From an uncultured Clostridia bacterium (GTDB lineage Bacteria; Bacillota; Clostridia; TANB77; CAG-508): a stretch of 64,000 nucleotides of DNA. Below, one piece after another: positions 9,136-9,909 of the stretch. The translations under genes were made by a program, and so were the position numbers. The stretch is from assembly GCA_934130435.1 (NCBI GenBank), contig CAKOYB010000002.1, forward strand, positions 115,609-179,608, given 5' to 3'. The first letter of the stretch is position 1. The number at the start of each line of letters is the position of its first letter. The notes beneath the pieces are model-generated. The model did not search any database. It was given only the letters and a program-made list of their open reading frames with translations, and had not been told where the DNA came from.

Positions 9136-9152
9136 TGCGTATTTTTTACGCA
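9136..9152. promoter_or_regulatory. Palindromic operator TGCGTA-N5-TACGCA, copy 1, in front of the radical-SAM operon.
   Basis: Near-identical to the palindrome at 9893-9909 (shared TTGCGTA-N5-TACGCATT context). Confidence 0.45.
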
Positions 9153-9185
9153 TTGATATTATTTTTTTAAGAGAGTTATTCTCTC

Positions 9186-9866
9186 CTAAAAAATTTCTAT
9201 ATCATATTCGCCTTTTGTAACAAATTTATATAAATTTGCAGGTCTATGACCTTTTATTGATTGGGTTAATCCTGTATTTTCAATCAAATTTAATGTTAAA
9301 AACTTTTTTCTAAAATTTCTTCTATCAAATTTTTTATCCAAAATCGCTTCATATACCTTTTGCAATTCTGGCAAAGTAAAATATTTAGGCAATAACGATT
9401 TTACAATTGTACTTCTCATTATTTTGTGTTTAATTTTTTCTATTGCCTCTAATAATATTTCTCTATGGTCATAGGCTAAATCCTCTGGAACATCCCTTAA
9501 ATTAAACCATGCTGAATTTTGTGTTTTTTCAGTTTTAGTTTTTATCTTTATATTATCACTATTTACAATTCCTATATATCCAACAGCAATCATTCTCATT
9601 AAAGGAGATCTATTCGGATTACTAAAAGTATGAAATTGTTCTACATATATACCTTCAATACCTGTTTTTTCTAGCATTTCTCTTTTTATTGCAGTTTCGC
9701 AATCCTCATTATTATACACCGCTCCGCTTGGAAGCATCCATTTGTCAGTATAAGGCTTATTGCTTCTTTGAACCAATAAAACTTTTACTTCTCCCTCTTT
9801 TACCGTAAACAATGTACATACAACATGTATTCCTTGATTCTTATATAAAGGATTATTTATATCCAT
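9186..9866 (-). CDS. Nudix-domain protein with a C-terminal winged-helix domain (NrtR-like transcriptional regulator).
   Basis: Degenerate Nudix box GAVYNNEDCETAIKREMLEKTGI. A C-terminal basic wHTH-like region of about 80 aa. Flanked by the operator palindromes. Confidence 0.55.
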   Translation of the reverse strand: MDINNPLYKNQGIHVVCTLFTVKEGEVKVLLVQRSNKPYTDKWMLPSGAVYNNEDCETAIKREMLEKTGIEGIYVEQFHTFSNPNRSPLMRMIAVGYIGIVNSDNIKIKTKTEKTQNSAWFNLRDVPEDLAYDHREILLEAIEKIKHKIMRSTIVKSLLPKYFTLPELQKVYEAILDKKFDRRNFRKKFLTLNLIENTGLTQSIKGHRPANLYKFVTKGEYDIEIF

Positions 9867-9892
9867 ATTATCCTCCGCTATCCATTCTTCAT

Positions 9893-9909
9893 TGCGTACT
9901 TTATACGCA
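9893..9909. promoter_or_regulatory. Palindromic operator TGCGTA-N5-TACGCA, copy 2, overlapping the -10 and +1 of the Nudix-regulator promoter.
   Basis: Inverted repeat with 6-bp arms. Sits directly downstream of a consensus promoter. Confidence 0.45.

What the first reader, a model, noticed from the sequence alone, without database searches (positions are those of the whole stretch)
9136..9909. Two copies of a TTGCGTA-N5-TACGCA palindrome bracket the Nudix-wHTH gene. One overlaps a consensus promoter.
The copy at 9893-9909 lies immediately downstream of a perfect TTGACA-17-TATAAT promoter and overlaps its -10 and +1. This is the classical position for a repressor operator and implies autoregulation of the Nudix-wHTH gene. 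The second copy (9136-9152) sits 16 nt before the RBS of the first radical-SAM gene. This points to the NrtR-like Nudix regulator controlling the radical-SAM operon, presumably in response to an ADP-ribose-like ligand. That would be an unusual regulon for this family, which usually controls NAD metabolism.
Basis: partly seen in the sequence, partly recalled or inferred. Interest (0 to 1): 0.55.

Follow-up and report, generated by a model that had tools for sequence, protein, structure and literature searches.

The report
NrtR-type operators controlling a peptide-maturase operon
Two copies of a 21-bp palindrome are the predicted binding sites of an NAD-family (NrtR-type) repressor that here switches off its own gene and a small mobile operon making a radical-SAM-modified 24-residue peptide, an unreported target for this regulator family.

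Summary
TGCGTA-N5-TACGCA occurs exactly twice in 64 kb (9136-9152, 9893-9909), with none in shuffles. One copy abuts a 12/12 TTGACA-17-TATAAT promoter of the Nudix-wHTH gene. The other lies 8 nt before the GGAG of the first radical-SAM gene.

Both sites are conserved in position in every related locus examined, in unrelated flanks. This holds as the regulator falls to 63% identity and radical-SAM protein 1 to 43%. The consensus is WWTGYGTA-N5-KACRCAWW. It has the 21-bp symmetry and GT-N7-AC core published for NrtR operators. Sister regulators (50-56% identity), next to NadR-like kinase genes, use the same motif.

In one locus the regulator gene is absent from at least 3.7 kb upstream, and in a second it is absent from the 183 nt available. 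Both keep the two operators in tandem before the radical-SAM genes. Half-site changes are uncoordinated, which argues for protein recognition rather than a hairpin.

- two radical-SAM/SPASM enzymes;
- an unannotated, highly conserved 24-aa peptide gene (6382-6456);
- a terminator, then a predicted zinc peptidase gene.

This is a new member of the NrtR family with a new, RiPP-like regulon. The ligand (ADP-ribose?) and the action of the second site are untested.

The parts
9932..9937 (-). -35 hexamer TTGACA of the operon promoter
   Evidence: 12/12 consensus match. TTGACAAA is invariant in 10 aligned loci.
9909..9914 (-). -10 hexamer TATAAT. Its last T is the first base of operator A.
   Evidence: TAnnAT is invariant in the alignment.
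9891..9911 (.). Operator A: 21-bp site AATGCGTATAAAGTACGCAAT (minus strand), core 9893-9909. It overlaps the end of the -10 and the expected +1.
   Evidence: Exact palindrome. Weight-matrix score 19.3 bits. The position is conserved in all cassettes.
9186..9866 (-). Nudix-wHTH regulator, NrtR/AraR family, 226 aa. Nudix box GX5EX7REUXEKXGU.
   Evidence: Pfam. Full-length matches to 5bs6 and 3gz5. Clade tree and motif alignment.
9163..9193 (-). 13-bp stem-loop spanning the regulator's stop codon, with no U-tract after it. Role unknown.
   Evidence: The 86-nt stretch 9115-9200 that contains it (and the operator B stem) folds at MFE -19.5 kcal/mol, z = -5.75. The hairpin segment alone folds at -13.2 kcal/mol. 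It is present with different stem sequences in all loci.
9134..9154 (.). Operator B: 21-bp site AATGCGTAAAAAATACGCAAA (minus strand), core 9136-9152. It lies 8 nt before GGAG and 17 nt before the ATG of radical-SAM gene 1.
   Evidence: Exact palindrome. Weight-matrix score 22.6 bits. Conserved before the RBS in all cassettes.
7856..9118 (-). Radical-SAM/SPASM enzyme 1, 420 aa, CNYNCNHC motif, ~90-aa N-terminal extension.
   Evidence: Pfam Radical_SAM 1.8e-27 and SPASM 1.8e-15. Nearest solved structures are SuiB, SkfB and CteB.
6469..7821 (-). Radical-SAM/SPASM enzyme 2, 450 aa, CNMNCKYC motif, ~120-aa N-terminal extension.
   Evidence: Pfam. Nearest solved structures are SuiB, PqqE, SkfB and CteB. 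The best NCBIfam hits are MftC and NirJ2, all far below cut-off.
6382..6456 (-). Unannotated 24-aa ORF MVKLIISAMACGHYCYYSRLPKRD, with RBS GGAGGTGA. Predicted precursor peptide.
   Evidence: Translation. Near-identical ORF at the same place in 11 other loci.
6342..6368 (-). Intrinsic-terminator-like hairpin that ends the operon after the peptide gene.
   Evidence: 10-bp stem followed by a T-rich tail.
5668..6318 (-). 216-aa HExxH protein, a predicted gluzincin zinc peptidase. It is part of the cassette and lies after the terminator, with its own RBS.
9946..9994 (-). AT-rich hairpin and T-run that ends the upstream QueH-GNAT gene and insulates the operon promoter.
   Evidence: Inverted repeat I4, 20-nt arms, 95% complementary. 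Sequence.

Best explanation
The two palindromes are operators for a dimeric NrtR-family repressor, the Nudix-wHTH protein encoded between them.

Operator A starts at the last base of a consensus sigma-70 -10 box and covers the transcription start. A bound repressor would therefore block initiation of a single transcript: regulator, radical-SAM/SPASM 1, radical-SAM/SPASM 2, 24-aa peptide, terminator. This gives negative autoregulation.

Operator B lies in the short gap between the regulator gene and the RBS of the first maturase gene. It adds a second block that acts only on the biosynthetic genes. The block could be a roadblock to elongation, cooperative binding with operator A, or repression of a weak internal promoter.

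By analogy with characterised NrtRs, a small ligand bound in the Nudix-like domain releases the protein from DNA and switches the operon on. ADP-ribose is the first candidate.

Shown here in silico: the sites, their statistics, their conservation, the family motif and the family membership of the protein. Inferred: binding, repression, the ligand and the mode of action at site B.
For: 1. Statistics. There are two exact copies and none in shuffles. An independent weight matrix picks only these two sites in 64 kb.

2. Footprint. In 10 aligned promoters only TTGACAAA, TAnnAT and the operator are invariant. Site A always abuts the -10. Site B always lies just before the RBS of radical-SAM gene 1. 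This holds in cassettes with unrelated flanks and in a distant one where radical-SAM protein 1 is 43% identical.

3. Motif. The consensus WWTGYGTA-N5-KACRCAWW has the 21-bp palindrome and GT-N7-AC core described for NrtR operators (PMC2330246).

4. Protein. It has both NrtR domains. It aligns over its full length to BtAraR and Shewanella NrtR, including the DRRNFRKK DNA-contact segment.

5. Sister clade. Regulators next to NadR-like AAA_28 kinase genes carry the same motif in their own promoters and before the downstream gene. The motif drifts together with the protein: TGCGTC..GACRCA in L014, GTGTT..AACAC in L025.

6. Cassettes with no adjacent regulator gene. In L101/L102 no Nudix-wHTH gene lies within at least 3.7 kb upstream, and in L104 none lies in the 183 nt available. 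Both keep the two operators in tandem before radical-SAM gene 1.

7. Not a hairpin. In 23 sites only Y5 and R17 vary, and they vary independently. There are 6 C/A mismatches and 4 A/G mismatches, which is half-site recognition rather than stem pairing.
Against: - There is no binding or expression data.
- The protein scores 153 bits against NCBIfam's ADPR-responsive repressor equivalog, whose cut-off is 400 bits.
- The ligand is unknown, and BtAraR shows that the family can switch effectors.
- No credible promoter precedes site B, so how it acts is unclear.
- Cassettes with no adjacent regulator gene show that a regulator encoded elsewhere must be able to use the same sites. The adjacent protein need not be the only binder.
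Confidence: 0.82

Rival explanations
1. The sites are real NrtR-type operators, but the physiologically relevant binder is a housekeeping NrtR encoded elsewhere in the genome, one that controls NAD salvage. The cassette would simply plug into the host's NAD regulon. The adjacent Nudix-wHTH protein would be redundant or have another role, for example hydrolysis by its nearly intact Nudix box.
For: The sister-clade regulators recognise the same TGYGTA-N5-TACRCA motif. In L101/L102 no regulator gene lies within at least 3.7 kb upstream, and in L104 none lies in the 183 nt available, yet both operators are kept. The Nudix box differs from consensus at one residue only, EE to EK.
Against: Most cassettes carry their own regulator between the two sites. 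Its wHTH segment is conserved. Site A is the regulator's own promoter. The 64-kb window has no second NrtR gene and no further site.
Confidence: 0.12
2. The palindromes act as nucleic-acid hairpins rather than protein sites. They could be short RNA stem-loops in the 5' UTR and intergenic region that affect mRNA stability or translation, or antisense-strand terminators.
For: The window copies fold as 6-7-bp stems, -6 to -7 kcal/mol. The scan flags them as terminator-like on the plus strand.
Against: In orthologues the stem is often broken by C/A or A/G mismatches, and MFE falls to -0.9 to -1.5 kcal/mol, while the half-site letters stay fixed. In the sister clade the same motif lies between -35 and -10, which is not transcribed. 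No plus-strand gene ends here. No Rfam family matches.
Confidence: 0.04
3. The two copies are a chance or repeat-derived coincidence with no function.
For: The region is AT-rich and short palindromes are common. Allowing 2 mismatches, 1 of 100 shuffles gave 4 matches.
Against: No exact match occurred in 100 shuffles. The sites are conserved in position across more than 10 independent loci, while neighbouring bases diverge.
Confidence: 0.01

Closest known systems
NrtR (Nudix-related transcriptional regulator) regulons of NAD metabolism, e.g. [quoted passage not shown]
   Same: - Nudix-like domain plus NrtR wHTH domain.
- 21-bp palindromic operator with a GT-N7-AC core.
- An operator in the regulator's own promoter, giving autorepression as shown for MsNrtR (PMC6800001).
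- A second site inside the operon, as predicted for C. acetobutylicum.
- A degenerate Nudix box with EK, as in MsNrtR.
   Different: The target genes are two radical-SAM/SPASM peptide maturases and a 24-aa peptide, not NAD synthesis or salvage genes. The unit is a small cassette found in unrelated genomic contexts. The score is below the NCBIfam equivalog cut-off. The effector has not been tested.
BtAraR (BT0354), the NrtR-family L-arabinose repressor of Bacteroides thetaiotaomicron (PDB 5BS6)
   Same: It is the best sequence match among solved structures, 6.6e-37 over the full length. It is the precedent for an NrtR-family member recruited to a non-NAD regulon with a different effector. A dimer covers about 25 bp.
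   Different: AraR controls sugar catabolism and senses arabinose. The present regulator's nearest relatives (50-56% identity) are Firmicutes NrtRs next to NadR-like kinase genes, not AraR orthologues.
Radical-SAM/SPASM RiPP and peptide-cofactor pathways: streptide SuiB, thermocellin CteB, SkfB, PQQ PqqA/PqqE, mycofactocin MftA/MftC
   Same: Radical-SAM plus SPASM enzymes with N-terminal extensions. They sit next to a very short conserved peptide gene and a peptidase. At 24 aa, the peptide is comparable in size to PqqA (size recalled, not checked here).
   Different: - No NCBIfam or Pfam model matches the peptide.
- All maturase scores are far below family cut-offs.
- There are two paralogous maturases.
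- The cassette has no transporter or immunity gene.
- The peptide's Cys residues are not conserved in distant members, so a thioether (sacti- or ranthipeptide) chemistry is doubtful.
- None of these pathways is known to be under an NrtR-type regulator.

Membership tests
NrtR family of Nudix-related transcriptional regulators | N-terminal Nudix-like domain fused to the C-terminal NrtR-type winged-helix domain | tested here: met
   PF00293 1.5e-14 (residues 18-138) and PF21906 1.1e-24 (157-215). Full-length alignment to 5bs6 (6.6e-37) and 3gz5 (3.6e-30).
NrtR family of Nudix-related transcriptional regulators | 21-bp palindromic operator with a conserved GT-N7-AC core | tested here: met
   The consensus of 23 sites is WWTGYGTA-N5-KACRCAWW, with G6 T7 ... 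A15 C16 invariant. The definition comes from PMC2330246.
NrtR family of Nudix-related transcriptional regulators | Operators located in promoter regions of the regulator gene and/or its targets, conserved across genomes | tested here: met
   Site A abuts the -10 and site B precedes the RBS of radical-SAM gene 1 in all cassettes.
NrtR family of Nudix-related transcriptional regulators | DNA binding relieved by ADP-ribose | not testable with these tools
   This needs EMSA or ITC. Only indirect support is available: the Nudix box and wHTH motifs are shared with the sister clade next to NadR-like kinase genes. The structural paper listing ADPR contacts (PMC2896262) was not available.
NrtR family of Nudix-related transcriptional regulators | Regulon made of NAD biosynthesis or salvage genes (typical of the family but not universal) | tested here: not met
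   The downstream genes are radical-SAM/SPASM enzymes and a peptide. There is no further site in the 64-kb window.
NCBIfam NF050029 'ADPR responsive transcriptional repressor NtrR' (equivalog) | Score at or above the curated cut-off of 400 bits | tested here: not met
   153.2 bits, E = 8.3e-45. The protein is a family relative, not an equivalog.
Radical-SAM/SPASM-dependent RiPP (or peptide-cofactor) gene cluster | Radical-SAM CxxxCxxC core plus C-terminal SPASM domain | tested here: met
   Both enzymes hit PF04055 and PF13186. The CNYNCNHC and CNMNCKYC motifs are in the translations.
Radical-SAM/SPASM-dependent RiPP (or peptide-cofactor) gene cluster | Short precursor peptide gene co-transcribed with the maturase | tested here: met
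   A 24-aa ORF with a strong RBS lies 12 nt after the radical-SAM 2 stop and is followed by a terminator. It is conserved in 11 other loci.
Radical-SAM/SPASM-dependent RiPP (or peptide-cofactor) gene cluster | Peptide-recognition (RRE/PqqD-like) domain | tested here: inconclusive
   The N-terminal extensions of 90-120 aa give no Pfam hit. The alignment to CteB starts at residue 60, before the radical-SAM core. No structure was predicted.
Radical-SAM/SPASM-dependent RiPP (or peptide-cofactor) gene cluster | Demonstrated modification of the peptide | not testable with these tools
   This needs co-expression and mass spectrometry.
Intrinsic terminator or regulatory RNA hairpin | Base pairing maintained by compensatory changes, with a U-tract | tested here: not met
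   Pairing is broken in 10 of 23 sites by C/A or A/G, and 2 further sites have a T/G wobble, while the half-site letters stay fixed. No Rfam match.

The most novel reading that the evidence does not exclude
The regulator plus its two operators is a portable, ADP-ribose/NAD-status-responsive switch that has been swapped between mobile cargoes. The cargoes seen are the SPASM/peptide cassette here and a kinase plus MiaB-like radical-SAM cassette in L022/L023. In the present cassette the switch would license synthesis of a previously undescribed radical-SAM-modified 24-residue peptide only when NAD is being broken down. The peptide's invariant core is GHY-x-Y-[YF]-SRLP, and its Cys residues are dispensable. 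It could be a peptide-derived cofactor or a signal. That would be a direct regulatory link between NAD turnover and RiPP-type chemistry.
Probability: 0.3. Interest if true: 0.7.

Novelty: new member of a known kind. Interest (0 to 1): 0.5.

Why it matters
NrtR regulators are known for NAD homeostasis, with a few recruitments such as pentose use. This case adds a well-footprinted recruitment to a radical-SAM peptide-modification operon in uncultured gut Clostridia.

It gives a concrete, testable trigger for an otherwise silent RiPP-like cluster: a defined 21-bp operator and a candidate ligand, ADP-ribose. It also defines the cluster's minimal parts, namely two maturases, a 24-aa precursor and a zinc peptidase.

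The same regulator clade heads different cargo operons, and cassettes keep the operators even where no regulator gene is seen nearby. Together these suggest a modular switch that lets mobile genes plug into the host's NAD-status regulon.

Tried and rejected
- Defence system. PADLOC gave only generic radical-SAM hits to pVip models and a weak Nudix hit. No defence family is supported.
- Known RNA family. Rfam at E <= 1 found nothing in 5200-10200.
- Phage or plasmid carriage. tblastn of the HExxH protein found nothing in phages or plasmids. The peptide DNA pattern found nothing in viral contigs and one locus in JGI metagenomes (L098, cut inside radical-SAM gene 2, so uninformative for the operators).
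- Internal promoter for the radical-SAM genes. No acceptable -35/-10 pair lies between the regulator stop and site B. In L101 the TTGACA next to site B has no matching -10. This is unresolved rather than excluded.
- Consensus structure of the hairpin at the regulator's stop codon. The MAFFT alignment was out of register, so RNAalifold gave no pairs. Single-sequence folds were used instead.
- ADP-ribose contact residues. The structural paper PMC2896262 is not held, so pocket conservation could not be scored.
- Peptide family. There was no NCBIfam or Pfam hit and no paper containing CGHYCYY. The resemblance of 'ACGH' to the ACGX system is superficial, because both maturases score about 110 bits against a cut-off of 400.
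- Thioether (sacti- or ranthipeptide) chemistry. This became doubtful once distant cassettes showed Cys11 replaced by Thr or Ser and Cys15 by Ser.

Full report
**1. The observation**

All genes in the region lie on the minus strand. Read on that strand, the sequence upstream of the Nudix-wHTH gene is ccaTTGACAaagtaaaattactaataTATAATGCGTATAAAGTACGCAatgaagaatggatagcGGAGGataatATG.
- The promoter scan gives TTGACA-17-TATAAT (9937-9909) as the only 12/12 match in 4500-10500.
- The palindrome TGCGTA-N5-TACGCA begins with the last T of the -10 box.
- A second exact copy lies at 9152-9136, in the 67-nt gap between the regulator's stop codon and the first radical-SAM gene. It is followed by aaaagaaaGGAGaaagtATG.

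The 17-nt pattern occurs only at these two places in 64 kb and never in 100 dinucleotide-preserving shuffles.

**2. The protein between the sites**

The 226-aa product carries the Pfam NrtR winged-helix domain (1.1e-24) and a NUDIX domain (1.5e-14). It aligns over its full length to BtAraR (5bs6, 6.6e-37) and to Shewanella NrtR (3gz5, 3.6e-30).

Its Nudix box is GX5EX7REUXEKXGU, one residue away from consensus. The same EK substitution is reported for MsNrtR.

It scores 153 bits against NCBIfam's ADPR-responsive repressor equivalog, whose cut-off is 400 bits. It is therefore a family member but not an equivalog of the curated NAD regulator.

**3. Comparative footprint**

Homologues at 63-99% identity were traced to their contigs. 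The set Nudix-wHTH, radical-SAM/SPASM 1, radical-SAM/SPASM 2 and a ~216-aa HExxH protein recurs with unrelated flanks. Neighbours include:
- a restriction-type methyltransferase and a serine recombinase;
- a PLD-domain protein and HSP90;
- Rrf2 and Ham1.

In the window itself the cassette is bracketed by a duplicated 3' end of the QueH-GNAT gene, which suggests an insertion.

In every such locus both sites are present at the same relative positions. In an alignment of ten promoters, only TTGACAAA, TAnnAT and the operator are invariant. The 17-nt spacer and the 5' UTR have diverged.

A relaxed pattern finds only these positions in each 9-15-kb locus. The one exception is a duplicated promoter fragment in L008.

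A weight matrix built solely from non-window sites picks the two window sites at 22.6 and 19.3 bits. The next hit scores 9.0, and no shuffle exceeded 15.8.

**4. Motif identity**

Across 23 sites the consensus is WWTGYGTA-N5-KACRCAWW. Rodionov et al. describe NrtR motifs as mostly 21-bp palindromes with a conserved GT-N7-AC core (PMC2330246). This motif has exactly that core.

The nearest non-cassette relatives (50-56% identity) lie next to NadR-like AAA_28 kinase or histidine-phosphatase genes.
- They carry the same motif between the -35 and -10 of their own promoter, and again before the downstream gene.
- In more divergent relatives the motif drifts along with the protein: TGCGTC..GACRCA in L014 and GTGTT..AACAC in L025.

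A neighbour-joining tree places the cassette regulators as one clade, sister to these canonical ones. The wHTH segment FDRRNFRKK is shared.

**5. Protein site or hairpin?**

Only positions 5 (Y) and 17 (R) vary, and they vary independently. Six sites have a C/A mismatch and four have an A/G mismatch. Predicted stability then falls to about -1 kcal/mol, while the half-site letters remain fixed.

In the sister clade the motif lies upstream of the transcription start. No Rfam family matches.

Together these favour recognition of two half-sites by a dimeric protein over an RNA or DNA hairpin.

**6. Regulon membership does not depend on the adjacent regulator gene**

In L101/L102, with 3.7 kb of upstream sequence, radical-SAM gene 1 is preceded by MgtC and there is no Nudix-wHTH gene. 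In L104 only 183 nt of upstream sequence was available and no regulator gene lies in it.

Both loci nevertheless keep both operators in tandem before radical-SAM gene 1. In L101 the arrangement is TTGACA-17-TACAA[TGTGTATGTAAGACGCA], then a 28-nt gap, then [TGTGTATAAAATACACA]tAGGAGG.

A distant cassette, L103 (radical-SAM protein 1 43% identical), again has a Nudix-wHTH gene upstream. Its site A variant TGTGTC..GACACA abuts TAATAT, and a weaker site overlaps the start codon of radical-SAM gene 1.

The link between operators and the radical-SAM genes therefore spans the whole, small family. It comprises 48 clusters for radical-SAM protein 1 and 57 for the HExxH protein.

**7. What is regulated**

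Both enzymes have the CxxxCxxC core and a SPASM domain. Their closest solved relatives are the peptide-modifying SuiB, PqqE, SkfB and CteB.

Twelve nucleotides after the radical-SAM 2 stop codon, behind a GGAGGTGA RBS, lies an unannotated 24-aa ORF (6382-6456). It encodes MVKLIISAMACGHYCYYSRLPKRD and is followed by a terminator-like hairpin at 6368-6342.
- The ORF is nearly identical in 11 other loci.
- Across the most distant ones the invariant core is MVK.[IL][IV]S.MA.GHY.Y[YF]SRLP.R.
- Both Cys residues are replaceable, which argues against thioether chemistry.
- No family model and no paper matches the peptide.

**8. Mechanism**

The most likely model has three parts.
- The regulator dimer occupies site A and blocks initiation at a strong promoter. 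This represses its own gene and everything downstream.
- Site B gives extra, cargo-specific repression.
- A ligand in the Nudix-like pocket relieves binding.

Site B has no convincing promoter of its own. A conserved 12-16-bp hairpin spans the regulator's stop codon in all loci, with different stem sequences. Whether that hairpin attenuates read-through is unknown. The choice between a roadblock, cooperative binding and an internal promoter therefore stays open.

ADP-ribose is the default ligand by family analogy. BtAraR shows that the effector can change.

**9. Novelty**

The operator type, the autoregulation and the two-site layout are typical of the family. Compare the predicted C. acetobutylicum arrangement #nrtR-pncA-#pncB.

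The regulon is what is new. No paper in the searchable library links NrtR with radical-SAM or RiPP genes.

Regulators 75% identical to this one head a different cargo: an AAA_18 kinase, a MiaB-like radical-SAM enzyme and a 280-aa protein. They nest inside the cassette clade. The switch therefore appears to be exchangeable between operons.

I rate it a new member of a known kind, of moderate interest.

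Noticed in passing
window 6382-6456 (-): An unannotated 24-aa ORF, MVKLIISAMACGHYCYYSRLPKRD, lies directly after radical-SAM gene 2, with a strong RBS and then a terminator. It is almost invariant across cassettes. The Cys residues are replaced in distant homologues (L103 has AMATGHYSYF). It is probably the precursor peptide of an undescribed RiPP or cofactor family.
   Followed up: yes
window 5668-6318 (-): A 216-aa protein with no Pfam family carries HELFH. Its predicted fold (pLDDT 94) matches M1 aminopeptidase and thermolysin catalytic domains. 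It belongs to a narrow family of 57 clusters and was found next to the radical-SAM pair in every locus examined for it.
   Followed up: yes
window 5335-5501 versus 10050-10407: A degenerate partial copy of the 3' end of the QueH-GNAT gene (87% and 100% identical segments) lies on the far side of the cassette. The roughly 4.5-kb cassette therefore looks like an insertion into or next to that gene. No integrase is present.
   Followed up: partly
window 9163-9193 (-): A 13-bp stem-loop spans the regulator's stop codon, with a U-run 5' and an A-run 3'. An equivalent hairpin with different stem sequences is present in all related loci, including the sister clade next to NadR-like kinase genes. It is not a canonical terminator in the sense direction. 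Its role is unknown.
   Followed up: partly
L022 7001-10319; L023 3301-7472: Regulators 75-76% identical to the window's have the same two operator positions. They are followed instead by an AAA_18 P-loop kinase, a MiaB/RimO-like radical-SAM enzyme (UPF0004 plus Radical_SAM) and a 280-aa protein with no family. L023 also has a GFO_IDH oxidoreductase. This is a second non-NAD cargo for the same regulator clade.
   Followed up: partly
L101 3572-7648; L102; L104 1-2729: Versions of the cassette with no Nudix-wHTH gene next to it keep both operators in tandem upstream of radical-SAM gene 1. L101 has 3.7 kb of upstream sequence and L104 only 183 nt. L101 also has an extra 198-aa gene before the peptide gene.
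   Followed up: partly
L008 3706-3926: A duplicated copy of the promoter and operator A, plus the first ~62 codons of the regulator gene, lies 1.5 kb upstream of the intact gene.
   Followed up: no
L021 12405-13004; L098 4201-4800: A second, distant Nudix-wHTH gene (about 27% identical) lies a few kb beyond the HExxH gene in two loci. In L021 the main regulator gene and radical-SAM gene 1 appear frameshifted.
   Followed up: no
window 10047-11087 (-) and 4879-5295 (-): The flanking genes are an epoxyqueuosine reductase QueH fused to a GNAT acetyltransferase domain, and a small cytidine-deaminase-like protein that scores below the equivalog cut-offs. Neither is part of the cassette in other loci.
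   Followed up: no
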